Shown: positions 17,542 to 53,331 of the stretch, piece by piece
Layout: each line of letters begins with the position of its first letter
Numbering within the stretch: position 1 is the stretch's first letter
Virus record (IMG/VR): IMGVR_UViG_3300044797_000394
Coordinates: 64,001 to 128,000 of that record
Strand: one strand, 5' to 3'
Length of the DNA: 64,000 nucleotides
DNA from: a virus
Position numbers and translations under genes: made by a program
The notes under the pieces: generated by a model
Databases searched by the model: none
Told to the model about the DNA's origin: nothing
Seen by the model: only the letters and a program-made list of their open reading frames with translations

Positions 17542-18299
17542 TACAATTCAAGCCTACGTTCAAGGATAAGAAGGGCAACATCGAGCGGTTGTCCGCACTG
17601 ATTGTTGAGGCAGCGAGGAACGGGGCAAAAGTAATATGCGCTCCTGAGTTGGCGACTACCGGGTACTCTTTCATGTCAGAGGAGGAGGCTCGCCCGTTCG
17701 CAGAGAGTCCCCAGTGGTTAGACGATTGGAACGGGGTAAGCCCGTGTACAATGATGGGTCGAGCATTGTCAATCTCTCGCAATCTTCAGGTGACCATTAC
17801 TTTCGGCTTCGTTGAGGTCGATTTGGGTACCAACAAGCTCTACAATTCGCAGGTCTTCATTGGTCCGGACGGATACCATGAAAGTTATCGAAAGATTTGC
17901 CCTTTTGGTAACGATTACATTTGGGCCGGTCGGGGCCAAAGCAACCCTCCCGTAATTCGCACGACAATAGATGGGGAACAGTGGAAGATTGGTCTGCTTA
18001 TTTGCCGTGACGTAAGGGACAAAAAAGACGACAAATGGAACAGCTTTTATGAACCTGGGGATGCGGATCTGGTTCTAATGGTTAGTGCCTGGGGTGACGG
18101 GGGTGTGCCTGCCAACGGATGGATGGACTTTGTGGAAGAGAATCAAACGGCACTCGCTGTCTCCAACGTGTGGGGAAAGGAAGCAAACAACGATTTTGGT
18201 GAGGGTGGCGTTTGCGTCATCGAAAAAAGTGGTAAAGTTCATTGTGACGGACTCAAATGGTCCGAAGATTGCATCGTGTACGCGGAGCTGAAGAAGTGA
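17526..18299 (+). CDS. carbon-nitrogen hydrolase (nitrilase superfamily, Nta1-like)
   Basis: E-K-C triad: PELATTGY, YRK, LICRD. Confidence 0.85.
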   Translation: MRVAVIQFKPTFKDKKGNIERLSALIVEAARNGAKVICAPELATTGYSFMSEEEARPFAESPQWLDDWNGVSPCTMMGRALSISRNLQVTITFGFVEVDLGTNKLYNSQVFIGPDGYHESYRKICPFGNDYIWAGRGQSNPPVIRTTIDGEQWKIGLLICRDVRDKKDDKWNSFYEPGDADLVLMVSAWGDGGVPANGWMDFVEENQTALAVSNVWGKEANNDFGEGGVCVIEKSGKVHCDGLKWSEDCIVYAELKK

Positions 18300-18580
18300 G
18301 CATCGCCGATCGAGTTGCAGCCCGAGTTGCCGAGCGGCTCACCATCCTGAGCGGACCCGAGGTTCGCCAGGCGGCGGCGCGTCTCGTTGCCAAACTCCCC
18401 GACGATTCCTTCGAGACCATCATCGCCAAGGCTTACTTTCGGGCCATCATGGATGGAGAAGAGTACAGAGCTAAACACCTAGCTAAGTCAGTGATGGTTT
18501 CGGAGGAGGTTGAGGCTCTGAAAAAGCAGCTCGCGAGCGAGATCAAGAGCAAGGCTCTTGCGGGCGAGGGCATCGAGTGA
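18296..18580 (+). CDS. RVAAR-tag hypothetical protein
   Basis: GTGA overlap. Begins MSIADRVAARV. Confidence 0.6.
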   Translation: MSIADRVAARVAERLTILSGPEVRQAAARLVAKLPDDSFETIIAKAYFRAIMDGEEYRAKHLAKSVMVSEEVEALKKQLASEIKSKALAGEGIE

Positions 18581-18627
18581 GGCGATAGGTCAACGATTGG
18601 TCGTCTTTCCGGTGTAAGTAAGAAGAG

Positions 18628-19914
18628 ATGCCCACCACCGACCAGCATTGTTCTTTCTGCCTCCACGCAAAGAACGAGGTCCCCGACGGACGGCTCATCA
18701 AGGGACAAGAGGAAGGCACCTACATTTGTGCCGATTGTGCTAAGGGGTCCTCGGAGATCTTTTTGAAGGAAATCACGAGGGAAAAGAGGGGCGAGGTTGC
18801 CCTGGGTAAACCTAAGGAAATCAAGGCGTACCTTGATCGGCACATCATCTCCCAGGATCGGCTCAAGACGACCGTCGCAACGGCAGTTTACCACCACTTC
18901 AAGAGGCGCGAAGCATCGAAGATGCTCAAGTCCGGGGGTGTAGCGATCCAAAAATCGAACATGCTCGTTCTCGGACCGACAGGATCCGGCAAGACCGAAA
19001 CGTTTCGCGCCATTAGCCGACTCCTCAAGGTTCCGTTCTACGTCCAGGACTGCTCTCGTTTGACGCAACAGGGGTACGTCGGGGATGACGCCGACGACAT
19101 GCTTCGGGGTCTCATTCAGGACGCGAGCGGAGACGTGGCCCGCGCCGAGTGGGGGATCATTCTTTGTGACGAGGCGGACAAGATAGCTCGCAAGAGCGGG
19201 CGTTCCGCGTCGGGTTATCGAGACATCACGGGCGAGGGCGTCCAGCAGGGGCTCCTACGCATCATTGAGGGGTGCAAGGTGCCCGTCACCCGAGGAATGG
19301 GAAAGAACGCGTCCGTGACGACTGTGGGCGCCGACGGAACAGTTCGCTCCAATGTCGACGTCATCGACACAACGAACATCTTATTCGTCTTTGCTGGGTC
19401 TTTTGCTGGCATCGAGGAAATCGTTGACCGTCGTGTAAACAAGGCGTCCCGACTGGGTTTCGGTTCCCAATCCAACGAAAAAAAGAGGCTCTCCTTAGAC
19501 GAAGCATACCGAACGGTTGTTCCGGACGACGTCCTTGAGTTCGGTTACATCCCAGAGCTTTTAGGGCGTCTGCCGATCCTCACCTCAACGTACGAGCTTA
19601 GCGAGGAGGATATGGTTCGAGTCCTCACGGAACCGGAAAACGCAATCGTGAAGCAATACAAGGCCCTGTTCGCTATGGATGACATTGCGCTCGAGTTCGA
19701 CAACGAAGCGTTGTTGGCGATCGGCCGGGAGGCAAAGAAGCGGCCGACGGGCGCACGGTCGTTGCGATCCATCGTGGAGGAGACCCTCGCACCTTATGCG
19801 TACAACCTTCCCAGCGAAGGGGATGCGACCGGATTGCGGATTACCGCTGAGTCCATTTGCGCGAGGGGGGAAGCCGTCGTCACCCGCACCGAACGTTTGT
19901 TGACTCACGGTTAG
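18628..19914 (+). CDS. clpX: ClpX-like AAA+ unfoldase
   Basis: CSFC..ICADC Zn domain, GPTGSGKT, GYVG pore loop, DEADK, RDITGEGVQQ, LGF loop, TGARSLR. Confidence 0.93.
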   Translation: MPTTDQHCSFCLHAKNEVPDGRLIKGQEEGTYICADCAKGSSEIFLKEITREKRGEVALGKPKEIKAYLDRHIISQDRLKTTVATAVYHHFKRREASKMLKSGGVAIQKSNMLVLGPTGSGKTETFRAISRLLKVPFYVQDCSRLTQQGYVGDDADDMLRGLIQDASGDVARAEWGIILCDEADKIARKSGRSASGYRDITGEGVQQGLLRIIEGCKVPVTRGMGKNASVTTVGADGTVRSNVDVIDTTNILFVFAGSFAGIEEIVDRRVNKASRLGFGSQSNEKKRLSLDEAYRTVVPDDVLEFGYIPELLGRLPILTSTYELSEEDMVRVLTEPENAIVKQYKALFAMDDIALEFDNEALLAIGREAKKRPTGARSLRSIVEETLAPYAYNLPSEGDATGLRITAESICARGEAVVTRTERLLTHG

Positions 19915-19937
19915 CCCTTCTATAGGGTAGCGTTCTT

Positions 19938-20657
19938 GTGGACGTTCTCACGCTCCGAGTCGCTGCCAGGTTTATTCAAGCCCGGCCAATTCCTCTCGAC
20001 CACGGGGCGATTAAGAGAGATTCCGACCGTATAGCCCACTACATCACAAAATACACGGCTCATTTCCCGTCGGAACAGGTTGTCGGTCGCCATGCCAAAA
20101 TCTTCGACAATCAGGAAACCAGCGTCTGGGTAATCGGGGGCGACTTCATCACCATTCCGGTTCTATTCGAAAGCACTCTTAGCAAGTCGACTTCCTTTAC
20201 CGTGGGTGGGATGTACTCGGTTGTCAAACGAGAAATATGGGTGCACATTAACGGCTCGAAAACATTCGGGGACTTTGCGGATCCTGAAAATCAGCCCCTA
20301 GTCTCAGCGGATATTTTCAAGGTGCTCATTCACGAGTTAACCCATGCGGCCGAAGGTCGCTTTCTCCCCCACGAGATTGTGGACCCTAAGGAGAGCCCAG
20401 AAGAGCGCAACGCATACTTCAACCAAGCCCATGAGGTGCGGGCGTACATGCAGCAGATTGTTTCGCAATGCCTCGACATCGCGAACCGCTACCTCCTGCG
20501 AAAGCAGTACAAGGGGAGACCTCACCAATTCGTAGAAGCCGTCGTGGACCTCAGTGAAACTTGGAAGAAGGTTCGGGACTACATGAACCCTCAAAGTAAG
20601 GCCAAGATTTTGAAAGCCGTGTATATGGCTCTGGATGAGGCCGGGTTACTTCTCTAG
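19938..20657 (+). CDS. RVAAR-tag HExxH protein
   Basis: MDVLTLRVAARF. LIHELTHAAE...YFNQAHEVRAY. Confidence 0.65.
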   Translation: MDVLTLRVAARFIQARPIPLDHGAIKRDSDRIAHYITKYTAHFPSEQVVGRHAKIFDNQETSVWVIGGDFITIPVLFESTLSKSTSFTVGGMYSVVKREIWVHINGSKTFGDFADPENQPLVSADIFKVLIHELTHAAEGRFLPHEIVDPKESPEERNAYFNQAHEVRAYMQQIVSQCLDIANRYLLRKQYKGRPHQFVEAVVDLSETWKKVRDYMNPQSKAKILKAVYMALDEAGLLL

Positions 20658-20685
20658 TCCACTTATTGATTGGGTGGTGTAACCC

Positions 20686-21900
20686 ATGGACAAGCTAGCT
20701 CTTCGTGTTGCTCAACGAATCGCCCAAACTCAAGAGGAAGAGGCGTCAATCAGCCGTCCCGGGCCCATGGCGCAAGATCCGCTTCTTGACGAACACCTCG
20801 CGGTAGCCCCTCCTGGGTGGGAGAATACCGTCAAAAAGATGAAAAAACACGATGAGATCGATAACCCGTGGGCACTTGCTTGGTCGATGAAGAACAAGGG
20901 TGACAAGCCGGGCGGAAAAAAGGAAGCCGACCAAGTCCAAAACGAGCTCTTGAAGACGGACGATTTGTCGCCCCCAGCCCCAGAGGCTTCGTCTCGATTC
21001 CCCGATAAGGACCCCGAAGCGGTTGCCGCCGTGCGATTGGCGATGGGACGTGAAGCCTCGTTTACGTCGACGTACTATCGTCTTGTCGGTGACCTTCGCG
21101 AACTTCGGGACGAGCATAGTATGGATCCCGAGCGGATTGCCAAACAAGCCATTGTTACGCTTCAGCTAGAGGATAAGAAAAAAGGGAAAAAGGCAAAGAC
21201 CTGGAACATTAGGACCGGTCCTCAGGCCACGGATACGTTTCGTGATCTCATCATGAGCCTAGAACCCTTCGTCAACGACCTTCCCGCCAAAGAGCAACAT
21301 CGAGCAAAAGAGATCGAGGGGCATGCGCTACGAGGATTCTCACACGCCACCACGCTCGAGGGTGAAGAGGTCAAGGAAGCTCTTCACTCGGTTCGCACCT
21401 ATCTGACCGAGCTCGAGAGGCTTCTTCAGGGTCAGCGCCAGCTTTTCGCTCGGGTCGCCTCTGAGTCTCACGAGGTTACGAACGTTTTCAAGGACATCTT
21501 CGACCTTTGCGATGAGCTACCTGATATCATCAATTTGGACTATATGCGTCAAGTGGGACTGAAGCCAGGACCGAAGGTAGACGCGTATCCCCTGAGGGAG
21601 AAGAAGCCTCGGGTCAAAGCAAAGAAGACCTTCAAGCAGGCTCAGGACGCGATTTTCGCATCACTTAAGGCCAAGGGCTGGAGGGTTACCGATCACCTGA
21701 AAATCCCGTACGCCGTGTCGCCCCACGGAGACTTCCGATTCTGGTTCAAGCCGCAGGCCATTTACTACTCGGCCGGCCCTAAGGTGAACAACTTCGGAGA
21801 GGCCCGTTCCATGTGGTCGTCCGATTACAGGAACATCGACACTGAAGAGTTCGTCAACGACCACCTCATGCATTTCGCTAAAAAGTACACCAAGGTCTGA
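20686..21900 (+). CDS. RVAAR-tag multidomain protein (putative virion-internal)
   Basis: MDKLALRVAQRI. Internal REAS and RVAS linkers. Confidence 0.65.
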   Translation: MDKLALRVAQRIAQTQEEEASISRPGPMAQDPLLDEHLAVAPPGWENTVKKMKKHDEIDNPWALAWSMKNKGDKPGGKKEADQVQNELLKTDDLSPPAPEASSRFPDKDPEAVAAVRLAMGREASFTSTYYRLVGDLRELRDEHSMDPERIAKQAIVTLQLEDKKKGKKAKTWNIRTGPQATDTFRDLIMSLEPFVNDLPAKEQHRAKEIEGHALRGFSHATTLEGEEVKEALHSVRTYLTELERLLQGQRQLFARVASESHEVTNVFKDIFDLCDELPDIINLDYMRQVGLKPGPKVDAYPLREKKPRVKAKKTFKQAQDAIFASLKAKGWRVTDHLKIPYAVSPHGDFRFWFKPQAIYYSAGPKVNNFGEARSMWSSDYRNIDTEEFVNDHLMHFAKKYTKV

Positions 21901-21901
21901 A

Positions 21902-22783
21902 ATGCGTAGGGACGTGTTGAGTCTGCGTGTGGCGGCTCGTTACCAGCTCGCCTTCGAGTTTCCGACTCCAAAGGCGCTGAAGGACTACCTGCACGAACAT
22001 CCCAAGGCGGACCCGAAAAATCATACGGTCAAGAAGCCGGGGGAGATTTCTGAAAAGAAGACGGACGGAGGTCACGGTGTCGAGCACGATGAGCACGAAC
22101 ACGGTGCCGGGCCTAAGTTGACTTGGAAGGACCTGGCAAAGAGTCTGTCCTCGAAGGCCCAGGAGTTCCTCCACAAGACCCCGTCGACCGTCAAAAAATT
22201 CGTTGATGATGAGGATCATCGTCGAGAAACTCTACTCAAGGCGCACAAGTCGATTCTGAGCGCCCCGATGAAATACGTCGAGAGTGCCTACAATGTAGCC
22301 AAACATGAGGTCAAGGAGTTCAAGGAGGCGGGCGAGGGCATCCATGCTTGGATGACCGGCAAGGAAGTCTCCAAGAAGCAAAAGCACGCCATACGGGAAG
22401 TGGCCATCCACTGTACGGTTGCGGCAGTTTCAGGGGCCTTAGGGGCGGGGTTCGGTCTTGGAGCGGGCGCCGTTGCCATCACGAAGGGCGTGATGAGCTC
22501 GTTCGTTAGCTCTACCGCAAAGAAGATCGCGGTCAAAGCGGTCACGAAGCACCTACAGCACCTACCCACTCTACACGAGTTTGGGGAGATCGGTCACCAC
22601 TCGGTCGAGCTGGTCTCAAAGCTCATGGAGCGCCTCGCGTCGAAAGACGACCGGCCCCCCACTCAGGATGAGGTTTTTCAGGCTCTCATCGCCGCCATTT
22701 CGGCGAAAGCACTCAAAGATTTGGATCCGGATACGATTAGGGAAGCCCTCGAAGACGCCGCTGGTGTATCTTCTGAGGGATGA
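21902..22783 (+). CDS. RVAAR-tag protein with a Gly/Ala hydrophobic segment
   Basis: LSLRVAARYQLA. AAVSGALGAGFGLGAGAVAI. Confidence 0.65.
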   Translation: MRRDVLSLRVAARYQLAFEFPTPKALKDYLHEHPKADPKNHTVKKPGEISEKKTDGGHGVEHDEHEHGAGPKLTWKDLAKSLSSKAQEFLHKTPSTVKKFVDDEDHRRETLLKAHKSILSAPMKYVESAYNVAKHEVKEFKEAGEGIHAWMTGKEVSKKQKHAIREVAIHCTVAAVSGALGAGFGLGAGAVAITKGVMSSFVSSTAKKIAVKAVTKHLQHLPTLHEFGEIGHHSVELVSKLMERLASKDDRPPTQDEVFQALIAAISAKALKDLDPDTIREALEDAAGVSSEG

Positions 22784-24064: not shown

Positions 24065-24065
24065 C

Positions 24066-24503: not shown

Positions 24504-24530
24504 CATTTGCAGTTGAAATGGAGATTACAG

Positions 24531-25494: not shown

Positions 25495-26121
25495 ATGTCC
25501 CTAACCCTCAAAATTGAAGAAGAGCTACGGAGCCGTCTCGAAAGAGAATTGCAGGGACATCAGGACAAGCTCTCGGAGATTCAAAAGCAAAAGGATGAGC
25601 TGGACGCCCTATATGCGGATGAGTCAGCCCAACTGGACCATCTTAGATTGAAGATTGAGAAGTTCGATTCGATCTTCGGTACAGAGCCAGAGCCCTCTAG
25701 GCGGCCCGTCGTTAGCGAGGCTGTTCCAACCGCTCGTACAGTCTCGGCCCCCTCCTCAAAGCCTTCCAAGCCCCCGAATAACAATCGAGCCGCCGTTGGT
25801 CGCCGTGAAGTGGCGGACGGAAGGCGTCCGAAGATTCGCGACGCCATGGTTACGGTAATGGGGACGAACATTATGAACGCCCTCAGTATCTACGAGGACC
25901 TGAAGGTTCGAGATTGGCTTCCCAATTCGAGCAATCCGAGAGCGTACATTGCGTATCTGCTTTCCTCATTCAGCGAGACCTTCGAGCGGGTACCGTCCAA
26001 AGGTCGTGGATACTACCGTGTCCGTGCGACCGCCACGGCAGAAGTGCTGCGAAACGGAGTTCCCCAGCTCAACAATACGGACGAGATCCTTCGAGACGCG
26101 GGCGTTCTTCCGGCCAACTGA
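25495..26121 (+). CDS. coiled-coil plus putative wHTH DNA-binding protein
   Basis: N-terminal coiled coil. IRDAMVTVMG...IYEDL..RDWLP...FERV..GRGYYRV. Confidence 0.55.
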   Translation: MSLTLKIEEELRSRLERELQGHQDKLSEIQKQKDELDALYADESAQLDHLRLKIEKFDSIFGTEPEPSRRPVVSEAVPTARTVSAPSSKPSKPPNNNRAAVGRREVADGRRPKIRDAMVTVMGTNIMNALSIYEDLKVRDWLPNSSNPRAYIAYLLSSFSETFERVPSKGRGYYRVRATATAEVLRNGVPQLNNTDEILRDAGVLPAN

Positions 26122-26627
26122 TGAACCGCGGTGACATCGTAACGTGTGATGGGACCTGGTATGTCGTAGTCCAGGTCAACTCGGACGATAGCACTCTCCT
26201 CTTGGACAAGGATGACACTGTGTTGATTGTCCAATCGGATGATCCAAAGTACAAGGTTGAGTTCAACCCGTTTGAACAGTGGCCCTTTATCGTGTTGCCC
26301 CATCGCTCCTATAAGTGGGGTGACCTTACTTCTGTGGCCCATCCTACAAATCTTCTTGAGACACCCGTACCGCTTCGAATCTTTCAGGATTGGCTCCTTG
26401 GTGAACCTGAGAGGAGCGGCGGAACTCTCTACCTGAATCCCAAGCTAAGGTTGCGGCATCTTGACCGAATTGTTCTTACTTACACGAGGGGCAGCACGAG
26501 CGTCATTGTGCCAAAGAACTTCAGGAACGTCTCCATTAGGGCCGCCTCCTCAAGGTTCGGTAGGGTGAAAGTTGCCGAAGTGAAAACGGTATTCGATCAT
26601 TTGCTCAAAGATGACGAGGATACCTGA
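26121..26627 (+). CDS. hypothetical protein with C-terminal HLLxDD tag
   Basis: TGATG overlap. Ends KTVFDHLLKDDEDT. Confidence 0.65.
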   Translation: MNRGDIVTCDGTWYVVVQVNSDDSTLLLDKDDTVLIVQSDDPKYKVEFNPFEQWPFIVLPHRSYKWGDLTSVAHPTNLLETPVPLRIFQDWLLGEPERSGGTLYLNPKLRLRHLDRIVLTYTRGSTSVIVPKNFRNVSIRAASSRFGRVKVAEVKTVFDHLLKDDEDT

Positions 26628-32237: not shown

Positions 32238-33659
32238 GTGGATCGCATCGAATTTCGAGTTTTGAGCAGGTGGAAGTCAGCGAATGCTATCAAAATTACG
32301 ATAGATCGTGACGCCACGAATAAAGCTCGTCAGCAATTCCCATCGATGACAGATCAAATCGTCGGTACGTTTGAGTCTCCGGTGAAAATGTATCGCATTT
32401 TTGATGGGGAGGAGTTGAGTCGTATTCTGCGAACGGGAAGGATTACGGGCGGGACTTACTCAGCCAAGGCGGAACGAACTCACGGAGCGTCTTGGGGGCA
32501 CAACATCACGGAAGTCATTGAAATAGGGAATAAACTCAGGGGAAAACGGTACGGAGACGATCTCTTCCTCGCTCGTTTGGACGCAATGGGCGTCCGATTT
32601 CACCATTTGAATCCAAAGGTGCCCTTTGACCCGAACGGGCCACCTCATCAATCCGGGGTCATGGAAGACTCCGCTTGCTGTTTTGGACTAGGGTGCTCGA
32701 TGATTGTCGGACTTGAGGATGTCGACCTATTCGTCGTGCACTCAAATCATCAGATGGACCCAATCTCTACGGAAGAGGCTAGAAATTACGTTGAGAAGCG
32801 ACCCAAGAAGGATGTGGACCTGCGAGAAATAAATCCGCAATTATACCAGGGCTCCATTCTGGATCATGATGTGCGGGTTTGGCTGACCGATGGTAAGTGG
32901 CAGGTCATTCTCAATGATGATCGAGTCATAGTCAATGACGCCCCGACGAAGGACGATGCGATCGAAACAGCTAAGATTGGAATTCGCCTGCGGCCAGGGA
33001 AACCCGTGCCCACCTCCTACCAAATCCTACTCCGAAAGAAAAAGTACGAAAAGCATTTTGAGCAGGATGAGGACCCAAACAAGATTCGTGGTGACTTCTC
33101 TCTCAAGCCTAGAGATCGTGTGCTCGTTGAGAAGGGTTCTCGGGGACTAAACATTCCAGCTCACTCGAGCGCTACCGTAGCCGACGTATATCAACGGACA
33201 GGGGATAGGACTGTTACTGTTAAGCTCATCATTGGAGACCGCCCCGTTTCTCTTTATGCCCAACACCCCAACCGTCTTGGGGACCCTGAAATTGCATTGA
33301 TGAATAGTGGTGGTGACCGCATCTTGATCCGAAAGAAAGCCACTATGAGTAAGCTCACCCTCAAAGTTGCTGCCCGCTATGCCGCCGAGCATGGCGGTTT
33401 GGATGTCGGGTACGGTCCCGCTGGTACGGGGCTGACGTACCAGGCCGAGTTTGACCCCACTACGAAGTGCTTCAAATGTGGTAAGGATGCCAGGCTAGCT
33501 ATTACCATCAAGGAGAAGCCGGGCGGGGATGCTGTGTGCCACCTGTACGACAATCATGATGAGGGCAAGTTCTGGCTTCACGATTTGGCAGCCTACGCCA
33601 TTTATCTCTGTCCTGATGTCGATTGTGCTGAAGCCACCACCCTATGGAATCAAGGATGA
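32238..33659 (+). CDS. RVAAR-tag multidomain protein
   Basis: MDRIEFRVLSRW start. Internal MSKLTLKVAARY at 33345, followed by a CxxC/CxxxxC domain. Confidence 0.65.
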   Translation: MDRIEFRVLSRWKSANAIKITIDRDATNKARQQFPSMTDQIVGTFESPVKMYRIFDGEELSRILRTGRITGGTYSAKAERTHGASWGHNITEVIEIGNKLRGKRYGDDLFLARLDAMGVRFHHLNPKVPFDPNGPPHQSGVMEDSACCFGLGCSMIVGLEDVDLFVVHSNHQMDPISTEEARNYVEKRPKKDVDLREINPQLYQGSILDHDVRVWLTDGKWQVILNDDRVIVNDAPTKDDAIETAKIGIRLRPGKPVPTSYQILLRKKKYEKHFEQDEDPNKIRGDFSLKPRDRVLVEKGSRGLNIPAHSSATVADVYQRTGDRTVTVKLIIGDRPVSLYAQHPNRLGDPEIALMNSGGDRILIRKKATMSKLTLKVAARYAAEHGGLDVGYGPAGTGLTYQAEFDPTTKCFKCGKDARLAITIKEKPGGDAVCHLYDNHDEGKFWLHDLAAYAIYLCPDVDCAEATTLWNQG

Positions 33660-35050
33660 ACGATATTGATCCTGAGTGGGGCATCGCCGCCCTCGAGTGG
33701 TGCCGTAGCCAACCCATGAGCGCATGCTCGGGGGAGGACGGTCTTGAGGACGTAATCTACGACGACGTCGCTCCGACCGACGCAATCTCAGCCAGAGTTG
33801 CCGCACGAGTTTTGATCGCCAGGGGGTTCTTCGCCCCCGGGGACGAAATTGTATTCGGGAAGTACAAGAACAAGCACGGCATCATCGAGCGCATTTGGGC
33901 CGATGATCGTGGACACCCGATGATTGAGATTCGTCCAGTCCCACAAGGCCGCAAAAAGAACAAGATCATGGGTCTCTACAAGATCTGGCACGACCCCGAC
34001 CCGCCCGACCCCGAAGAAGAAGAGAAGAAGACGGCTGCCGAACGAGTCGTTGAGCGCTATGCGGCGTCCGTAGTTCTCGAGAAGAAGTTTGGTCGATTCA
34101 AGGTGATTTATCTGAAGCAGCACGAAGAACACGTGGACAAGCTGGGTGCTTTGCTCGAGGAAGCGGAGCGTATGTACGCCGCTGCTGGTGTCCCCATCGT
34201 TCACGATATTTCGTCTGTACTAAGCGGGCGAGGTGCTTCCCATGCCGGCGCACTTTACACAATGGGTAGTGTGCCTCCTACCATTCAGTTTGCACCGAAG
34301 TCCTACGAGGATCCTAAACTTATCCATACGGTCATTCATGAGCTTGGACACTACTGCCACGATAAGGTGGTGCCAGGTGGAATTAATAACTCAGCAATCA
34401 TCAGTAAGCACATGTGGGCTGTTCGTCAGAAGTCGACCGGTAAAAGCAACAAGGTTGACATTCTGAACCGAAAAATGAAGGCTCTGAATGAAGCGTATTC
34501 CCGACTGAGTGAGGAGCAAAACAAGCGAAAGCCATTGCCACGCAAGGGACAGGTATTTGAATACGATACGTGGGTCAATGGTGTGCAGTACCATGTGAAG
34601 GGTCGCATCGTTGGTAAGGCGGATAGTCGCACTGTCAACGTGGAGGTCATTGACGCCCCAGAGGCTTATATCAAGCGTCAGCAAATCTACCGACGAGGCC
34701 CTGGACCCTTAATTGTGCCTGAATCCGTCGATTCCCTTACCTATGCTGGTAAAGACGAAGCCAAAGAGGCGGAACTCAAAAAGGTTGAGGAAGAAAGGCA
34801 TACGGTTTACGTAGAGTTGTCCTCCCTCATAAAGAGTGGCGAAGGACGGAGTGACTACAAAACCCATCTACATGATTGGGTCCCCACGAACTATGCCCGT
34901 AAGAACCACATGGAGTATTTTGCAGAGATGATGACCACCTACATTCTTGGTCATCTAAAACCAGAACCGTCCGAGTGGCTCAAGAGTGTTGTCAAGACGG
35001 GTAAAGCTCCCGAGGCGCCTGAACCCGTACCCACAGAAGAGCCCGAATGA
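33656..35050 (+). CDS. RVAAR-tag HExxH zincin-like multidomain protein
   Basis: ISARVAARV, TAAERVVERY, VIHELGHYCH...NYARKNHMEYFAE. Confidence 0.7.
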   Translation: MNDIDPEWGIAALEWCRSQPMSACSGEDGLEDVIYDDVAPTDAISARVAARVLIARGFFAPGDEIVFGKYKNKHGIIERIWADDRGHPMIEIRPVPQGRKKNKIMGLYKIWHDPDPPDPEEEEKKTAAERVVERYAASVVLEKKFGRFKVIYLKQHEEHVDKLGALLEEAERMYAAAGVPIVHDISSVLSGRGASHAGALYTMGSVPPTIQFAPKSYEDPKLIHTVIHELGHYCHDKVVPGGINNSAIISKHMWAVRQKSTGKSNKVDILNRKMKALNEAYSRLSEEQNKRKPLPRKGQVFEYDTWVNGVQYHVKGRIVGKADSRTVNVEVIDAPEAYIKRQQIYRRGPGPLIVPESVDSLTYAGKDEAKEAELKKVEEERHTVYVELSSLIKSGEGRSDYKTHLHDWVPTNYARKNHMEYFAEMMTTYILGHLKPEPSEWLKSVVKTGKAPEAPEPVPTEEPE

Positions 35051-35781
35051 GGTTCCTTGTTGTTGCCCGCGCCCGGTCGAAAGGGCTTGTCAGTGAGGAG
35101 CGACAGCTTCGGTCTCGCAGTCGACGACTGAGCCGTGTCCGATCCTCCATGGAAGCGCTTCAAGCCAAAGTCAAGCGAGACCTACGCTCGAGCGATCCCA
35201 ATCGTTTTCTCACCGCGTTGGCGGTCGGACTCATGGCTGAGACGAGCGAGGACCCCGTCTTCTCTTGGCGGAAGAAGAACGTCCAGCTCGATGATCGAGA
35301 GGCGTACTTCCGAGCCAAGGGGAAACGCAAGCCCATCACCAACGCATCGATCGTCAGAGCTTTGGCGGATGCCTACGAAGCGGTCGAGGATGTGGACGAC
35401 GAGCTCTTTGCACACGACACGGGTCGCGTGACGGCGGACATGGTGAACGAATACCTGGGCGGATTCAAGCTCAATATGAGTGATATCCGAGGGTTCAACG
35501 CCAATAGAATCATGTCTTCCAAGTTGTCTCAGGTTCGATCTGAGGGTCCCGAACTCCCAAGGCAAAAACGATCAAGAACGAAGCTCCTTCAAGGGGAGTT
35601 CCTCAAGGCACTCGAAGCCACTGCGGAAGAGGTAGGACTCGAGGCCGACATGATCCGATTTAATTGCCTTGATCCGGGAATGGAAGCCGCCTACCTCGAC
35701 AATGGAACCCTGGAGAAAACAGCCTCTTTGGATCCGCTGACCGTGAAGGTTGCGAGTCGGTTTCAGAAACTCCACGGATAG
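35047..35781 (+). CDS. topoisomerase IB-like fold, probably inactive
   Basis: ALAVGLMAET, FRAKG, VNEYL, SDIRGFNAN, AEEVG...IRFNCLDP (Cys at the Tyr position). Confidence 0.55.
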   Translation: MRFLVVARARSKGLVSEERQLRSRSRRLSRVRSSMEALQAKVKRDLRSSDPNRFLTALAVGLMAETSEDPVFSWRKKNVQLDDREAYFRAKGKRKPITNASIVRALADAYEAVEDVDDELFAHDTGRVTADMVNEYLGGFKLNMSDIRGFNANRIMSSKLSQVRSEGPELPRQKRSRTKLLQGEFLKALEATAEEVGLEADMIRFNCLDPGMEAAYLDNGTLEKTASLDPLTVKVASRFQKLHG

Positions 35782-44846: not shown

Positions 44847-45011
44847 ATGGTCATTGATGCCGACGACATTTCTATGGCGATACGCACCAATATCGAGCGC
44901 CTCGCCAAATTCGTTGGCGTGGACTTATCGAAGCCTGCCTACAGGAACAAGGAAACGTTGGCTCGTGCTGTCGCTCGGCGTCTGAACCGGATCAAGTGTC
45001 AGGGAAAATGA
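44847..45011 (+). CDS. small hypothetical protein (54 aa)
   Basis: MVIDADDIS...LARAVARRLNRIKCQGK. Fills an intergenic gap. Confidence 0.4.
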   Translation: MVIDADDISMAIRTNIERLAKFVGVDLSKPAYRNKETLARAVARRLNRIKCQGK

Positions 45012-46788
45012 TCTCGCAGGTGACGAGCATATCGTCACCTTTCGAGGACATGCTCACGGAGGAGCGGAAAGCTTCGTCCCGAACTTCGTGATTAATGCTT
45101 TCCTTCAGGACTCCATCGAGAGACGACTTGAGTTTTCGGAATGCGGTCGTGTCGCCTTCGGCGCCCTTGACCGTGACGTATACGATGGGGCCCTCGCCCG
45201 CCTCTGCGGAGATTTCATAGCCCTCGACTGAGACCTTCGCTTGGAGCTCCTTGGCGAGCTTGCTCATCCATCCGTGCAGCCAGCCTTTTTGATTCGCCAT
45301 AACAACGCGTTCCTTCCATCGGACCACCACGCGGGCGGCCATCATGATGTTGTCTCGAGCACTAGCCTTCTTCGACTTCTTCCACTCCTCATAGTAGCGC
45401 TTCTGGTGCTCCCAGGGAAGGTTCCGAATCTTACGACTGCGGGGATTTGACGGAGATTCTTTGTGGGTGGAATTGAAGTTCGGGTTGGGAACCTCTTTTT
45501 CGCCCATGGAATCGAGGAAGGTGGACTTCGTTTTGCTATCGTTGTCTTTTTCAGACTTATCGTGATCCTTCTTTTCCTCTGGTTTCTTCGAACCACCGCC
45601 GGCTCGAGCCTCGGCGTCCTCGTTCATCGCCTTGACAGCCTCTGCGATGTTCTTTTCGGGCTTCTTGGGGAGCCCCTTGAGGGTACGTCCGTAGCTCGTT
45701 TCCTTCTGGAGCTTGTACTGTGCGGCGCCGTACAGAATCTCGTTGATCTTGGTCTTTGCCTCCCCCTTTTCTTGCTCGCTCATTGTGGAGAGCTTGTTCA
45801 TGAGGTCTCGAGCCTGCTTACGACGGGCTTCGGCTTCCTCGGGAGTGTGCGCGGGGGGGCCCTTGCGGTAATGCAGGAAGTTGTCCGGATCAGCTTCCTG
45901 AATCGACTTCAGAGCCTTTTCGTTCTTCTTGTACCAGTTGTCGATGTCCGATTGATCCACCATTCTCTTGCCCATGACTTTGCCACGGCTGAGGTTGGAT
46001 AGTTCGGTGTCGGCCTTCTCGGGGTGTAGGAAGATGACGCTGACCTGGTACCCCGCCGCCTTGGCGTGTTCGACCTGGCCCTTGAAGTCCATCGTGTCGA
46101 TGTCCTCGCCCGCCGAGTCGACAATCAGCATGTGGGAGGCGTCATCGTGCTCCGCCATACGACGAACCTTATCGTCGAAACGATGTCTGGCCTCATCCTT
46201 GTAGCGCTCCTTAGGTTTGCCAGTTTCCTCGTTTTTCTCGTCGACGTCGTTGTGCCAACCTCGCATAGAGACGTAGAAGTCCGTGTTGTACTTCTTCAGA
46301 AACGCCTTGTGCCCTTCGATTGGGTCGTCGGTTTTGGGGAAATCCTCATATTTGGCGTACTTTGAGAGATCCTGACGTTCCCCGTCCTTCGTCTTGTACC
46401 AGATGTCAGCCAGCGCCTTGTCGAAGGATTCCTTGCCTTCCTTGTGGGCTGTGACGAGGTCCTCATAGTGACCTTTGGACTCTTCGAATTGGATGGCTCG
46501 AAGGTGATTGTCACTCTCATCTTGGTCCGGAATGGCAGGAATGTCCTCATCCGTAAAGAGTCCGGTCGTACTCTTTGGGAGTCGATACCCGAAGGTTGTT
46601 TCTCGCTCCTCGCCTTTTTCGGTTTTGTACTTCTTGGTCTGACCGCCCTTGTCCTTTTCGGGCTCTCCGAGGAAGTAACCTTTTCCAGCGGCGGGCGGAC
46701 CGATCATTACGACCATTTTCTTAGCCCGTTTGGGCTCAGAGTCGGCCAGGACACGTCGTAAGACTCGAAGGGCTATGGGACTCGGCAC
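44992..46788 (-). CDS. RVAAR-type-tag P-loop kinase (zeta/AAA_33-like) multidomain protein
   Basis: SD AAGGAG. SPIALRVLRRV, MIGPPAAGKG, IVDSAG...AAGYQVSVIFL...N..R. Confidence 0.65.
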   Translation of the reverse strand: MPSPIALRVLRRVLADSEPKRAKKMVVMIGPPAAGKGYFLGEPEKDKGGQTKKYKTEKGEERETTFGYRLPKSTTGLFTDEDIPAIPDQDESDNHLRAIQFEESKGHYEDLVTAHKEGKESFDKALADIWYKTKDGERQDLSKYAKYEDFPKTDDPIEGHKAFLKKYNTDFYVSMRGWHNDVDEKNEETGKPKERYKDEARHRFDDKVRRMAEHDDASHMLIVDSAGEDIDTMDFKGQVEHAKAAGYQVSVIFLHPEKADTELSNLSRGKVMGKRMVDQSDIDNWYKKNEKALKSIQEADPDNFLHYRKGPPAHTPEEAEARRKQARDLMNKLSTMSEQEKGEAKTKINEILYGAAQYKLQKETSYGRTLKGLPKKPEKNIAEAVKAMNEDAEARAGGGSKKPEEKKDHDKSEKDNDSKTKSTFLDSMGEKEVPNPNFNSTHKESPSNPRSRKIRNLPWEHQKRYYEEWKKSKKASARDNIMMAARVVVRWKERVVMANQKGWLHGWMSKLAKELQAKVSVEGYEISAEAGEGPIVYVTVKGAEGDTTAFRKLKSSLDGVLKESINHEVRDEAFRSSVSMSSKGDDMLVTCEIIFPDT

Positions 46789-46847
46789 CTTGAAAGACCT
46801 CTCCTTGGGGATTGTAAGCAATAGACTATGGATTGACCCATTTAGGT

Positions 46848-47824: not shown

Positions 47825-47917
47825 ATACTTGCGGACTGATAAGAGAATTCGTTCGTTGGTCCGACGGTAGAGCTTCCAAAACCCCCAATAAGTACAATCC
47901 TCGGTGTAGAGATTTTC

Positions 47918-49622: not shown

Positions 49623-49635
49623 CATTGGATTTCCG

Positions 49636-49911
49636 ATGGACTACGACGACTTGGAATTTCCTCCTTCTCATTTGATGAAACCCACGCATCGTGCTTCGGT
49701 TGTGGCCGAAGATTTCAAGTGCCCCAAATGCAAGGCACCTATGGTTGAGAAAATAGGGAAGTTCGGACCATTCTTCGGTTGTGTGCGGTTCCCTTCCTGC
49801 AAGGGCTCCCTCGACGTCACCAAGTCCAAGTCCAAGTCCAAGTTTAAGTCGGTCAGCAAACCGTCCGCCCCAGCAAGGAAGACAGTTTGGGACCACTTGG
49901 TCGGGGACTAA
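49636..49911 (+). CDS. stand-alone topoisomerase C4 zinc-ribbon protein with C-terminal tag
   Basis: CPKCKAPMVEKIGKFGPFFGCVRFPSCK. Ends KTVWDHLVGD. Confidence 0.8.
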   Translation: MDYDDLEFPPSHLMKPTHRASVVAEDFKCPKCKAPMVEKIGKFGPFFGCVRFPSCKGSLDVTKSKSKSKFKSVSKPSAPARKTVWDHLVGD

Positions 49912-50375
49912 TTGAGAAACTTCTTCGGGACTTCCATCGGCTCCGCTTTGACCTCTTCTTCTCGGTTGTGCCGATTTCGGTAGGCGATGCCACGGGCGAA
50001 TTCAATGAGCTCATGCCAGAGGAGTTGAAGCTGACTCATTGCCATTTCAGCGCTGAATGAGTCACGCGGGTCCTCGGACTTCTGGGCTTTCTCCCGAGCC
50101 GCTTCGACCTTGAGATCCTGTTCACCAACGCGGGCTAGTAGCTGCTCGACGTGAGTGATGAATACGAGGCGGACCTCATAGTCGCTACGCCGCCTTGCTA
50201 TAGCCTCCCAGAATTCCTTTGCGGCTTCGTCTGGGGTGTAGTCCTCTCCGTACGAAAGGTCGCCGTTGGGTTGAATTCGTACAAGCACGCGACCCGAGGA
50301 AGTTCCGATCACCAGTTCGTTTGGGTTTCGGGGAATCTTTGAATCGTCTCTATCATCCATTTTCATAATCCTCAT
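49908..50375 (-). CDS. hypothetical protein
   Basis: Contains a G.DYTPDEAAKEFWEAI segment. Start uncertain. Confidence 0.55.
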   Translation of the reverse strand: MRIMKMDDRDDSKIPRNPNELVIGTSSGRVLVRIQPNGDLSYGEDYTPDEAAKEFWEAIARRRSDYEVRLVFITHVEQLLARVGEQDLKVEAAREKAQKSEDPRDSFSAEMAMSQLQLLWHELIEFARGIAYRNRHNREEEVKAEPMEVPKKFLN

Positions 50376-50406
50376 GCCCAAGAGAGCCGATAAGTCGACT
50401 TTTACC

Positions 50407-50955
50407 CTACTCCTCATCCAGAATGTGTTCGTGCCAGGACTTTTTGGGGGTGGGCGGAACAGGAGCCTTAGACTCTTCGGGAGGCGGAGAGGGTGAAACT
50501 GTCTGAACCTGAACCGGACGTTGGATCCCAGGAACTCTGGTAAAGAGCTCGCGAGAGATACGAACTGGGGTGGGAGCCAGGTTATCCACTACCCGGTTAA
50601 TCTCCTCTAGGCTCCGTTCAATCTGATCGTTCAATCCGCTAAGAGAATCGTTGACCGAATTGAACAGACTTTGACCCGACGTCAAAGGCGGTAGGGGAGG
50701 GAGTGGGGGGATTGGCGGTAAAGGTGGAATCGATGGTACAGTCCTTGTCCTTTCAAGACTTTGCCTCAGTCGTTCAGTTCTTAATCGTAGCGACCGGACC
50801 CGTTCTTGTCGGGCTGTTTCGGGGGAGTTTAACAGTAACCCTTGAATTTGTTGACGATGCCGGCGGCCGCCCAGCCAAATGAGTGTGGCCCAAATGGTAA
50901 GTAGGACCGCAGAAAGGCCGTACTCCGCGATAGCCACATAGTTTATCTCATCCAT
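50407..50955 (-). CDS. N-terminally anchored Pro-rich membrane protein with C-terminal tag
   Basis: TM helix, PPIPPLPP repeats, ends KKSWHEHILDEE. ATG 11 nt after CGGTGTA. Confidence 0.65.
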   Translation of the reverse strand: MDEINYVAIAEYGLSAVLLTIWATLIWLGGRRHRQQIQGLLLNSPETARQERVRSLRLRTERLRQSLERTRTVPSIPPLPPIPPLPPLPPLTSGQSLFNSVNDSLSGLNDQIERSLEEINRVVDNLAPTPVRISRELFTRVPGIQRPVQVQTVSPSPPPEESKAPVPPTPKKSWHEHILDEE

Positions 50956-51020
50956 CCACTCTAGTTTACACCGTCCCCGTAAAATACGGGGTGCCACTTC
51001 TTCTTGTGTAGTGGTAAGGT

Positions 51021-52040
51021 GTGGCGTTCGTTGGATTAAAGGTTCCTGTTGAGCTAGGAAGCCTGTTCAGTCAGGTTGAGGTTCCCGGTCGTAGGGAATC
51101 CAAGGACAAGTACCACGTAACCATTCTAAATATGGGAAAAGACGTACCAATCGAGCAGATTGGCAAAGCCTCAGTCGTTGCCTTCAAAGTCTGCGAACAG
51201 ACCCCGCCCTTCATGGTTACTACGAAAAAGGTGTCTCAGTTCCCAAAGGGTTCCGATGGGGTTCCCATCATCGCCCTCATCGAATCCCCCGCCCTGCACA
51301 ATCTTCAGGCCAACCTCAAGAAGGCCTTCGATAAAGAGGGGGTCAGCTACTCCAAGAAGTTTCCCGAATTTAAACCGCACGTCACCCTCGCATATAGTGA
51401 CACAGGTATGCCCGAGCAGGCCATTGTCCCGATCAGTTGGACGGTCAGTGACATCAACCTCTGGGGCGGGGATTCTGGAGAGGAGCGGATCGTTACCAGG
51501 TTCCCCCTTAGCATGGACGCGCATAGCTCTCGGATGGCGTCGGTTAGAAACGATCGGGTGTCGGCTCTTCGGGTAGCCGCTCGATATCAGATTGCTTGTG
51601 AGGGAGGAGTTTGCACTTGCGGCGGTACCTGTTCTTGCGGTAAGTCCTCTGCGAAACGTCAAAATCCTACGGATGCGACGTTGGGAAAAGTGTGGGAGGA
51701 AGGTGGAAAAGCAAAGTTCGTCACCTGGGCAAACCGTAAATTTCTACCAGAATTCAAGAAAGCTCTAGGCTCTTCGGACAGTGTTGCAGCAGACTTATTC
51801 GGAGAGGGCGTTTTCGACAATTTCCTTCGGACGGTTCAAGAACTACCGAACATATCTAAGACCTTCGGGTACCCTCTTGCAGGGACTCGTGATGACTCAC
51901 TAATGGGTATGTGGGGACAAATCATAAGCACCTTGCGATACCGTCACCCGGACTTTCGTAAGGTGGAAACTCCGTACCGTCTATATGAAAATGATTACGT
52001 CACCTTGAAGGGGATTGTCGACACTTTAGGTCGTCGATGA
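51021..52040 (+). CDS. 2H phosphoesterase (LigT/Acb1-like fold) fused via an RVAAR linker to an unknown domain
   Basis: YHVTI and FKPHVTL motifs, followed by ALRVAARY. Confidence 0.75.
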   Translation: MAFVGLKVPVELGSLFSQVEVPGRRESKDKYHVTILNMGKDVPIEQIGKASVVAFKVCEQTPPFMVTTKKVSQFPKGSDGVPIIALIESPALHNLQANLKKAFDKEGVSYSKKFPEFKPHVTLAYSDTGMPEQAIVPISWTVSDINLWGGDSGEERIVTRFPLSMDAHSSRMASVRNDRVSALRVAARYQIACEGGVCTCGGTCSCGKSSAKRQNPTDATLGKVWEEGGKAKFVTWANRKFLPEFKKALGSSDSVAADLFGEGVFDNFLRTVQELPNISKTFGYPLAGTRDDSLMGMWGQIISTLRYRHPDFRKVETPYRLYENDYVTLKGIVDTLGRR

Positions 52041-52885
52041 GCATCGCGCTCCGAGTTGCCGCGAGGTTCATGATAGCCTCTCTCCTTGAGGAACTTCGGC
52101 ACAAGATGGATGATCTCCTCAAGGACAGCCCGCTCGACGCGGCTAAGGGAGAAGCCTTAGCTAAGTGGCTCGAGGATAACTTCTACATTCTGTCCCCGAA
52201 GACGCCCAAGGGTCAAAAGGCGGTCAAGGCCATCGCTGAAAAACTGCATTGGTGGCTCAAGTCAGGCATCCGAATGCATCAGGACCCGGAAGCGCCCAAA
52301 CGGACGATCGAAGAGACTTGGAAGGAGCTCGAATCACACTTGAGCGACTTCGTCAAGTACTTTTCGGCTGAGGGCGGCAACGTTGTGCCCAAGGAAATCA
52401 AGCTCGACGGGAACACTTTCACCAACGGGGCGGGGCTGAACGAGAAAAAGTTGAACGAGTACGCCTCGCGCCTTTCGGACGTCTTCAAGGATCTCAAGGG
52501 ATGGCGTAGGGGAGCCCTGGAGGGGGGCGTCAGGGTCTACTTTGCCAGCCCTAAGGACTTCGGCGGAGGGACTGCGGGCGGCAAGTACAAGTCCGACCAG
52601 GACGTCTTGTACGTTCGCGCCACGCCCGACGTTCTCAAGCGAGAGGGTAAGTCTTACGCTGGGTTTGAGTACATCATTGTGCATGAGCTCGGTCATCGGT
52701 ACGAACGCAAGCATCATGTGCCCACGGACTTCGACCGTCCCGAGTGGCATACGACTCCATATTCCAAGAAAGAGGGGGAGGGGTTTGCGGAGCTTTTTGC
52801 CCTGACGAACTTCGGGATCACCAACGCCCATACGAACTGGGGATCAGAATTGAACGAGCGTTTCGAAAAATTAATGGGTGGCTAA
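52037..52885 (+). CDS. RVAAR-tag HExxH zincin-like protein
   Basis: MSIALRVAARF. IVHELGHRYE...TTPYSKKEGEGFAE. Confidence 0.7.
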   Translation: MSIALRVAARFMIASLLEELRHKMDDLLKDSPLDAAKGEALAKWLEDNFYILSPKTPKGQKAVKAIAEKLHWWLKSGIRMHQDPEAPKRTIEETWKELESHLSDFVKYFSAEGGNVVPKEIKLDGNTFTNGAGLNEKKLNEYASRLSDVFKDLKGWRRGALEGGVRVYFASPKDFGGGTAGGKYKSDQDVLYVRATPDVLKREGKSYAGFEYIIVHELGHRYERKHHVPTDFDRPEWHTTPYSKKEGEGFAELFALTNFGITNAHTNWGSELNERFEKLMGG

Positions 52886-53331
52886 TGGGAATCGTTGAGA
52901 GGGTCGTGCTCCGGCACATGACGGCTGCCAGGTGGGACAATTCCGTGAACGGGTCGTACTTCTCACTCCGCTGGAATAAGACCAAGTGGAGCCTTGAGGA
53001 AATGTTGGACGGGTCACGTATTCCCGCAACGTCTAACTTTGGGGAAGGCCATGCGGGTCTTGTGACTTACGAGATGCCTCAACTGGGCGCCCTTCTGTCA
53101 AAGTACGACACACCCATCAACGCCCACTCGGACAGTATCCGAGTGGGCGCCAAGCTCCAGGGTGAGGATACTGGCCCCGTTGCTCGTCAGAAGCTCATTA
53201 CAGCGAGCAATGAGCACATGAAGCTCGCTATTGATAGCTTAAGAGAGGATGGTTCACCGGACCTGAACAAGGTCATCCACTTGGCGAAGGAGTTCGAGAA
53301 GAAGCTCGTTTGGAAGAAGATCAAGGCGTAG
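52885..53331 (+). CDS. RVAAR-type-tag hypothetical protein
   Basis: TAATG overlap. MGIVERVVLRHMTAA. Confidence 0.6.
   Translation: MGIVERVVLRHMTAARWDNSVNGSYFSLRWNKTKWSLEEMLDGSRIPATSNFGEGHAGLVTYEMPQLGALLSKYDTPINAHSDSIRVGAKLQGEDTGPVARQKLITASNEHMKLAIDSLREDGSPDLNKVIHLAKEFEKKLVWKKIKA

What the first reader, a model, noticed from the sequence alone, without database searches (positions are those of the whole stretch)
18296..53331. 'LRVAAR[FY]' tag on about 11 unrelated proteins: putative capsid-targeting or maturation signal for a virion cargo set
Seen at N-termini or between domains: SIADRVAARV (18296), LTLRVAARF (19938), LALRVAQRI (20686), LSLRVAARY (21902), IEFRVLSRW (32238) plus LTLKVAARY (33345), ISARVAARV plus AAERVVERY (33656 ORF), LTVKVASRF (end of 35047 ORF), IALRVLRRV plus MAARVVVRW (46788, minus), SALRVAARY (51021 ORF), IALRVAARF (52037), IVERVVLRH (52885). 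[KR]xAS or xAA often flanks it (KTAS, RMAS, KKAS, KVAS). The cargo is diverse: zincins, a 2H phosphoesterase, a P-loop kinase and a TopIB-like fold. Known: T4 internal proteins use a short N-terminal capsid-targeting sequence that the prohead protease removes. Inference: an analogous packaging and cleavage code, with internal copies marking polyprotein cut points.
Basis: partly seen in the sequence, partly recalled or inferred. Interest (0 to 1): 0.82.

Follow-up and report, generated by a model that had tools for sequence, protein, structure and literature searches.

The report
Shared address tag on phage proteins

Summary
RVAAR occurs 7 times in the 156-kb record against 0.05 expected. Thirteen proteins carry the tag; 11 lie among about 44 genes at 18-53 kb. 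Codons differ at every position, so selection acts on the peptide. The tag is old: it is kept on orthologues in more than 15 related 350-530-kb phages (phage G lineage) and is nearly invariant in one zincin family.

Five of six internal copies follow a [KR]-x-A-[STA] site within 16 residues (background 3%). That site is conserved at three aligned positions in the scaffold of 13 relatives, next to a head maturation protease. Tags also occur on head-operon proteins.

Against a pure capsid reading: tagged genes from many families flank a phage ClpX gene with an intact zinc finger in every relative examined. The tag is enriched only in ClpX-carrying genomes. Its core LRVA matches known ClpX-docking peptides. 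Tagged genes lie in non-structural operons.

This scan noted the same tag earlier on other genomes of the clade. It is a new variant of known kinds (T4 capsid-targeting sequence, ClpX docking tags).

The parts
18296..18580 (+). 94-aa helical protein with an N-terminal tag (M-SIAD-RVAARV; core at 18311-18328). It is the last gene before clpX.
   Evidence: The G001 orthologue is 72% identical and has the variant AERVLNRI.
18610..19914 (+). CGGTGTA promoter-like motif (18610-18616) and the phage ClpX gene (18628-19914). ClpX has a CxxC..CxxC zinc finger, a GYVG pore loop and an LGF loop; the RKH loop is replaced.
19938..20657 (+). HELTH zincin, 239 aa, with an N-terminal tag MDVLTL-RVAARF (core 19956-19973).
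   Evidence: The G001 orthologue starts MTLTL-RVAARY.
20686..21900 (+). 404-aa orphan with an N-terminal tag MDKLAL-RVAQRI (core 20704-20721), followed by an acidic, Pro/Gly-containing stretch that looks unstructured.
   Evidence: No Pfam or PHROG match.
21902..22783 (+). 293-aa protein with an N-terminal tag MRRDVLSL-RVAARY (core 21926-21943). The family is found next to clpX in several relatives.
32238..33659 (+). Two-module protein. It has an N-terminal weak tag (RVLSRW, 32256-32273) and an internal KKAT + MSKLTL-KVAARY (site about 33333-33344, core 33363-33380) before a Cys-rich C-terminal module.
33644..35050 (+). HELGH zincin, 468 aa, with tags at residue 51 (RVAARV, 33794-33811) and residue 134 (KKTAA-E-RVVERY, 34043-34060).
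   Evidence: The G001 counterpart is a zincin-zincin fusion with a decayed tag.
35047..35781 (+). 244-aa protein with a C-terminal cassette KTAS-LDPLTV-KVASRF-QKLHG-stop (site 35716-35727, core 35746-35763).
44992..46788 (-). Zeta-toxin-type P-loop kinase. It has an N-terminal tag (MPSPIAL-RVLRRV, core 46767-46750) and an internal KKAS + ARDNIMMAA-RVVVRW (core 45333-45316) before a C-terminal module.
51021..52040 (+). 2H phosphoesterase (LigT/Acb1-like) + RMAS-VRNDRVSAL-RVAARY (site 51531-51542, core 51570-51587) + a Cys-rich module.
52037..52885 (+). HELGH zincin, 282 aa, with an N-terminal tag MSIAL-RVAARF (core 52052-52069). In G001 it is fused behind the 2H domain, with the tag as the linker.
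52885..53331 (+). 148-aa protein with an N-terminal weak tag MGIVE-RVVLRH (core 52900-52917). Proteins with a similar N-terminal region lie next to clpX in G003 and G025.
2..1141 (+). 3' part of a 437-aa HELTH zincin. Its start (172 nt before the window) carries a double tag MDVSL-RVAERY-QLAI-RVAERT. It lies next to the SNF2 helicase gene.

Best explanation
The peptide [LIV]-x-[LAE]-[RK]-V-A-A-R-[FY] is an exposed, probably helical address tag. It leads self-contained protein modules.

In this phage it labels a fast-changing set of effector-type enzymes: four HExxH zincins, a 2H phosphoesterase, a zeta-type kinase and several orphans. In relatives it also labels several head-operon proteins.

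Proposed sequence of events:
1. The tag brings the module into the assembling procapsid, by binding a head component or a loading factor.
2. The head maturation protease cuts multi-module carriers at [KR]-x-A|S sites, which lie 1-12 residues before internal tags.
3. Each released piece again starts with a tag.
4. The pieces travel with the DNA into the next cell.

What is shown:
- The tag exists, is under peptide-level selection and is conserved across a clade.
- [KR]xAS is conserved in scaffolds, next to a head protease gene.
- [KR]xA[STA] is coupled to internal tags.

What is inferred:
- Cleavage happens at these sites.
- The carriers reside in the procapsid.
- The tag is the loading signal.

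The reader of the tag is not identified. The scaffold or portal is one candidate. The phage's own ClpX, through its zinc-finger domain, is the other.
For: - Enrichment and protein-level selection of the tag.
- Orthologues in G001 and more distant relatives keep the tag.
- R6, A8 and R10 are invariant or nearly so in 32 aligned zincin homologues from metagenomes.
- The AlphaFold2 model puts the tag at the free, low-confidence end of helix 1: pLDDT 54 for residues 1-10, against 90 overall.
- Five of six internal tags have [KR]xA[STA] within 16 residues upstream, against a 3% background.
- The scaffold-like protein of 13 genomes keeps three aligned sites: EKTAS, PKTAS and VRTAS. A head maturation protease gene lies beside it.
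- K[TS]AS occurs 10 times against 3.3 expected in the complete genome G002, and 5 of the 10 are in the head module.
- Tags occur on head-operon proteins. The small basic protein before TerL has LxL-RVAARF in 11 genomes. The giant protein after the portal has KTAS-TLA-RVVARV. h210 has KKT-IAE-RVASRF. The G002 h667 has KKAS..RRVARF.
- Fusion and fission occur at the tag: 2H + zincin, and zincin + zincin.
- T4 is a precedent for diverse defence proteins that share only a capsid-targeting sequence (PMC3012670).
Against: - N-terminal tags are not followed by a cut site, so they would stay on the protein, unlike the T4 signal.
- All tagged genes of this record lie in operons with the CGGTGTA promoter-like motif, among replication and nucleotide-metabolism genes. 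That motif is missing from the tail and head blocks of G001.
- Tagged genes from at least 12 families flank clpX in every relative examined. Strict tags are 3.8-fold enriched within 5 kb of clpX.
- LR745208 has the same capsid protein (82% identical) and the same scaffold sites, but no ClpX and no tag enrichment.
- Several internal tags in relatives lack the [KR]xAS site.
- K[TS]AS sites in the portal and h667 of G002 are not conserved in G001.
- There are no virion protein data for any member of the clade.
Confidence: 0.42

Rival explanations
1. The tag is a docking peptide or degron for the phage-encoded ClpX and has nothing to do with packaging. It would bind the ClpX zinc-finger N-domain as the SspB tail does. 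That would tether the carriers for unfolding, timed degradation through ClpP, or use as adaptors or proteolytic partners. Cleavage at the upstream site could expose a latent N-terminal signal.
For: - A ClpX gene with an intact zinc finger, GYVG loop and LGF loop heads an operon with three tagged genes.
- N-terminally tagged genes from at least 12 unrelated families directly flank clpX in G001-G003, G005, G006, G010, G012, G014, G015, G017 and G025. G014 has five around clpX.
- Sixteen strict tags lie within 5 kb of clpX against 4.2 expected, and 10 of 14 genomes have at least one against 3.7 expected.
- Among contigs holding the zincin, 15 of 20 have this ClpX, including 5 of 5 that are at least 90% complete. 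Tag pattern counts are 119 against 27 for the control in ClpX-positive contigs. Four of five ClpX-negative fragments have 0-1 tags.
- LR745208 and Tunturi_5 have no ClpX and no tag enrichment.
- The core L-R-V-A matches the SspB tail peptide RGGRPALRVVK (PMC8808172) and the ZBD-binding consensus LKxh (PMC7226468).
- The tag occurs at N-termini, C-termini and linkers, as docking motifs do.
Against: - It does not explain why internal tags follow head-protease-type sites, nor why head-operon proteins carry the best-conserved copies.
- The residue before R is L only in part of the clade; elsewhere it is D, E or N.
- No ClpP gene is present in this record, G001 or G003.
- Co-occurrence and synteny are confounded by shared ancestry.
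- One 49%-complete fragment has 10 tags and no ClpX.
- Phage G has ClpXP but no tag.
Confidence: 0.3
2. The tag docks on some other common partner, or is a self-associating helix. Candidates are the portal or terminase, a host factor, or a phage compartment. Neither ClpX nor the scaffold would read it.
For: - The best-conserved copy is on the small protein directly upstream of TerL. That is the usual place of a small terminase subunit, which is not packaged.
- The tag is an amphipathic helical extension.
- A second, C-terminal acidic tag marks a separate protein set in the same genome, which suggests several addressing systems.
Against: - No candidate partner was identified.
- It does not account for the clpX neighbourhoods or for the coupling to [KR]xAS.
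Confidence: 0.13
3. There is no function. The motif is a chance recurrence, a nucleotide-level repeat or translation-start signal, or simply the inherited first helix of one paralogous family.
For: - Four carriers have the HExxH zincin motif.
- In the 52037 family the tag is in fixed register with helix 1.
Against: - The excess over shuffles is about 140-fold.
- Codons differ at every position.
- Copies are also internal and C-terminal.
- At least 12 carrier families show no similarity once the tag is removed.
- The tag is conserved on orthologues at about 50% identity.
Confidence: 0.01

Closest known systems
Capsid-targeting sequence (CTS) of phage T4 internal proteins (IPI-III, Alt), and the N-terminal packaging signal of P1 DarB
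   Same: A short N-terminal peptide is the only thing shared by diverse anti-defence proteins, and a head protease acts on the carriers (PMC3012670).
   Different: - There is no sequence likeness.
- The T4 tag is cut off at an LxE site after the tag. Here the cut site lies before internal tags and is missing after N-terminal ones.
- The genes lie in non-structural operons.
- Copies also occur at C-termini and linkers.
- Packaging has not been shown.
ClpX zinc-binding-domain docking peptides: the SspB XB tail (ALRVVK-COOH), the UmuD tether and the RssB LKxh sites
   Same: The core is L-[RK]-x-small hydrophobic, in an exposed terminal or linker position. A ClpX with an intact zinc finger is encoded among the tagged genes.
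   Different: - The tag is longer (RVAAR + aromatic) and is mostly N-terminal.
- It is carried by about a quarter of the genes in a 35-kb region.
- The leucine is not conserved across the clade.
- Binding is untested.
Assemblin-type head protease sites (herpesvirus (V/L/I)-x-A|S; own knowledge) and scaffold processing in HK97/T4-like phages
   Same: The basic-x-Ala-Ser motif is conserved at several scaffold positions beside a head maturation protease gene.
   Different: - The P3 residue is Lys or Arg.
- The fold and catalytic type of the protease were not tested.
- The same site is coupled to a second motif in enzymes outside the head module.
Polyvalent proteins of phages and conjugative elements (Iyer et al. 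2017, cited in PMC7824862)
   Same: Zincin peptidases are shuffled and fused with other conflict enzymes, with candidate processing into modules. One giant carrier lies right after the portal gene.
   Different: Most modules here are separate genes, each with its own tag. No MuF or portal-binding domain was detected.

Membership tests
T4-type capsid-targeting sequence system | One short terminal peptide shared by otherwise unrelated proteins | tested here: met
   There are 13 carriers. At least 12 families show no similarity outside the tag.
T4-type capsid-targeting sequence system | The tag is removed by the prohead protease at a site directly after it | tested here: not met
   No [KR]xAS follows the N-terminal tags, and the sites precede internal tags. 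Only the C-terminal cassette of the 35047 ORF would be cut off.
T4-type capsid-targeting sequence system | Carriers are present in procapsids or virions, and the tag is sufficient to package a foreign protein | not testable with these tools
   No isolate of the tag-bearing clade exists, and no proteome. The Tunturi_5 paper has no mass spectrometry, and that phage lacks the tag.
ClpX N-domain docking peptides (SspB XB / LKxh) | Core L-[KR]-x-small hydrophobic | tested here: inconclusive
   LRVA or LKVA is present in most copies of this record, in G001 and in the pre-TerL protein of 9 genomes. The leucine is replaced by D, E or N in many relatives. Reference motifs come from PMC8808172 and PMC7226468.
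ClpX N-domain docking peptides (SspB XB / LKxh) | A cognate ClpX with an intact zinc-binding domain in the same system | tested here: met
   zf-C4_ClpX + AAA_2 + ClpB_D2-small domains are present, and the four Cys are invariant in the six aligned homologues. The intein-bearing long forms of relatives also start with the first CxxC motif.
ClpX N-domain docking peptides (SspB XB / LKxh) | Physical binding of the peptide to the zinc-binding domain | not testable with these tools
   This needs a binding assay with purified N-domain and tag peptides.
Head maturation protease cleavage sites | The motif is conserved at aligned positions of the scaffold, next to a head protease gene | tested here: met
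   Three aligned [KR]xAS sites occur in 13 scaffolds. The protease was identified by homology to Tunturi_5 gp331 and to phrog_18299.
Head maturation protease cleavage sites | Demonstrated cleavage at the motif | not testable with these tools
   This needs N-terminomics or an in vitro assay.
Polyvalent proteins | A MuF/portal-associated anchor domain fused to an effector array that includes a zincin | tested here: not met
   The 1347-aa post-portal protein of G001 has no Pfam or PHROG match. Effector shuffling and zincins are present.

The most novel reading that the evidence does not exclude
The two lines of evidence describe one machine. The phage ClpX reads the tag with its zinc finger. It then acts as a cargo-selection or loading unfoldase for the procapsid, feeding or handing tagged enzymes to the head, where the protease cuts them at [KR]xA|S. 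That would be a protein-packaging role for a Clp unfoldase. It has been speculated for jumbo-phage AAA+ proteins (PMC7824862) but never shown.
Probability: 0.12. Interest if true: 0.9.

Novelty: new variant of a known kind. Interest (0 to 1): 0.62.

Why it matters
- If the tag is a loading signal, it gives a sequence-readable list of the proteins that a whole clade of 350-530-kb uncultured phages injects into its hosts. It would also give a portable handle for putting foreign proteins into large capsids.
- If ClpX reads it, these phages run a private, tag-directed unfolding or degradation network over about 10% of their non-structural genes.
- Either way, the tag and the [KR]xA|S site together turn dozens of orphan genes into a defined functional class.
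- Both readings are directly testable with peptides and recombinant proteins.

Tried and rejected
- Complex prediction of the ClpX N-domain dimer with the first 40 residues of the 21902 protein gave no verdict. It counts neither for nor against binding.
- Megablast of the region, and tblastn of the zincin, against GenBank phages found nothing.
- Pfam and PHROG scans of the giant proteins upstream of the window gave no annotation. Whether that block is structural rests only on synteny with G001.
- A loose-pattern hit at the C-terminus of the G001 RtcB is the native end of the RtcB domain, not a tag. A 916-aa ORF at G001 337089 is a spurious reverse-frame ORF.
- I suspected that the 775-791-aa ClpX forms had swapped the zinc finger for another domain. 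They keep it; the extra length is an intein in the Walker-A loop.
- K[TS]AS sites in the portal and h667 of G002 are not conserved in G001. I therefore relied on the scaffold sites instead.
- The AlphaFold2 model of the small pre-TerL protein is unreliable (pLDDT 41). Whether it is a small terminase or an internal basic protein stays open.
- No ClpP or S78 protease family match was found in this record or in G001.
- The DNA-repeat explanation was rejected on codon diversity.
- The TopIB-like fold claimed for the 35047 ORF was not tested.
Full report
**What the window is.** The window is bases 64001-128000 of a 156-kb IMG/VR virus record, rated 33% complete. One of its proteins also sits on a 463,523-base contig. 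The capsid protein of its closest relative is 82% identical to that of uncultured phage LR745208, 47% to Tunturiibacter phage Tunturi_5 and 38% to Bacillus phage G. This is therefore a huge phage of the phage G lineage. Positions 1-18 kb of the window encode an SNF2 helicase, DnaB, a family A polymerase, an AAA+ protein, a nucleotidase, thymidylate synthase and a GIY-YIG endonuclease. Further genes are a nitrilase-family hydrolase, DUF1848, a DHH phosphoesterase and a DNA methylase.

**The observation.**
- RVAAR occurs 7 times in about 49,500 residues, against 0.05 in shuffles. The wider pattern occurs 10 times against 0.04.
- Thirteen proteins carry the tag, and 11 of them lie among roughly 44 genes at 18-53 kb.
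- Eight copies begin 5-9 residues after the start codon. This uses the GTG starts at 18296, 32238 and 46788.
- The rest are internal or, in one case, 5 residues from the C-terminus.
- Codons vary at every position, so the conserved object is the peptide.
- Four carriers have HExxH. The AlphaFold2 model of the 52037 protein is confident (mean pLDDT 90). Its best structural matches, all weak, are collagenase, anthrax lethal factor and PPEP-1 peptidase domains.
- The tag forms the free end of helix 1, with pLDDT 54.
- The other carriers are a 2H phosphoesterase, a zeta-toxin-type kinase and orphans.

**Conservation.**
- The nearest relative, G001 (363 kb, fetched whole), has 8 exact RVAAR[FY] copies against 0 for the control pattern, again mostly N-terminal.
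- Orthologues keep the tag.
- Modules are fused or split exactly at the tag. In G001, 2H-LSLRVAARS-zincin is one protein; here it is two genes.
- The 52037 zincin family has more than 200 metagenomic homologues. In 32 of them aligned, R6, A8 and R10 of the tag are invariant or nearly so.
- None of these homologues is in GenBank phages.

- Five of six true internal tags have [KR]xA[STA] within 16 residues upstream. The background is 3%.
- In G001 and G002 I located the head module. It comprises TerL, portal, a giant Lys/Glu/Pro-rich protein, a head maturation protease (homologous to Tunturi_5 gp331), a Gln-rich scaffold-like protein, a decoration-like protein and the capsid protein.
- The scaffold of 13 genomes keeps three aligned sites: EKTAS, PKTAS and VRTAS. 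I take [KR]xA|S to be the protease site by analogy with assemblin-type x-x-A|S sites (own knowledge).
- Several head-operon proteins carry tags:
  - the small basic protein just before TerL, with LxL-RVAARF in 11 genomes;
  - the post-portal giant protein, with KTAS-TLA-RVVARV;
  - a 210-aa protein;
  - h667 of G002.

So tagged multi-module enzymes look like substrates of the head protease. That places them in the procapsid.

**Evidence pointing elsewhere.**
- Position 18628-19914 is a full ClpX. It has the zinc finger, GYVG and an LGF loop; the RKH loop is replaced.
- A CGGTGTA motif 11 nt before its ATG starts a unit that continues into three tagged genes. A fourth tagged gene ends just upstream.
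- In every relative examined, clpX is flanked by N-terminally tagged genes, and these belong to at least 12 unrelated families.
- Strict tags are 3.8-fold enriched within 5 kb of clpX.
- Of 20 IMG/VR contigs with the zincin, 15 have this ClpX, including all 5 near-complete ones. Tag counts are 119 against 27 for the control pattern in those contigs. Four of the five ClpX-negative fragments have 0-1 tags.
- LR745208 shares the capsid protein and the scaffold sites but has no ClpX and no tag enrichment.
- The core LRVA resembles the SspB tail RGGRPALRVVK (PMC8808172) and the ZBD consensus LKxh (PMC7226468).
- The tagged genes sit in CGGTGTA-type operons. That motif is absent from the tail and head blocks of G001.
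- N-terminal tags have no cut site behind them.

**Weighing.**
- The cleavage-site coupling and the head-operon copies favour packaging.
- The gene neighbourhoods, the phyletic pattern and the motif likeness favour ClpX.
- Shared ancestry weakens the co-occurrence argument. The absence of any virion data weakens the packaging argument.
- I put about 0.42 on cargo address with head-protease processing and an open reader. I put 0.30 on a ClpX docking tag or degron without packaging, 0.13 on another hub, and about 0.12 on a combined model in which ClpX selects or loads cargo.

**Earlier notes.** Earlier notes of this scan described the same two motifs on other genomes of the clade, with a capsid-loading reading (e1-5707544 and others). 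I re-derived the scaffold sites independently. The short summary of that note that I could see does not mention ClpX, so the ClpX association may be new here.

Noticed in passing
window 25914-26627, 54012-55097, 55390-55992, 59893-61353 (-), 63620-64102: A second tag, C-terminal and acidic (..T-[VA]-[FWY]-x-H-L-L-x-D-D at the very end), sits on a different set of proteins. No protein carries both tags.
   Followed up: partly
window 18610, 15609, 28896, 29892, 35835 and about 30 more; G001 1-110 kb and 258-360 kb: A CGGTGTA motif lies 9-14 nt before start codons of non-structural genes (very short or no leader). It is absent from the tail and head blocks of G001 (110-236 kb).
   Followed up: partly
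L134:5072-7447(-), L135:2736-5078(+), L136:3062-5389(+): The ClpX genes of three relatives carry an intein with a LAGLIDADG endonuclease inserted in the Walker-A loop (GPSG|C ... THN|TGKT).
   Followed up: partly
G001 214134-215015 (L033:14134-15015, -) versus G002 215185-216063: The major capsid protein is 91% identical between two phages whose other proteins are mostly 50-60% identical. That is an unusually strong constraint, or a recent exchange.
   Followed up: no
window 17502-18299 and the same position in relatives (L004, L007, L008, L135, L136, L138, L142): In most relatives examined, a nitrilase-family (CN_hydrolase) gene lies a gene or two upstream of clpX. Eukaryotic N-terminal amidases belong to this superfamily (own knowledge), so a link to N-terminal processing is conceivable.
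   Followed up: no
window 16567-17541; G001 213056-214018: Homing endonuclease genes (GIY-YIG here; LAGLIDADG/HNH-like next to the capsid gene in G001) are inserted among conserved genes.
   Followed up: no
L075 (Bacillus phage G 186949-191145): Phage G has a canonical clpP-clpX operon of bacterial type and no RVAARF tag enrichment. Its ClpX is 42% identical to this one and has a canonical bacterial-type zinc finger, so it may be a separate acquisition (not tested).
   Followed up: partly
window 62457-63782: Earlier notes of this scan describe amber-suppressor tRNAs and a stop-gated RGPP leader here. I did not re-examine them.
   Followed up: no
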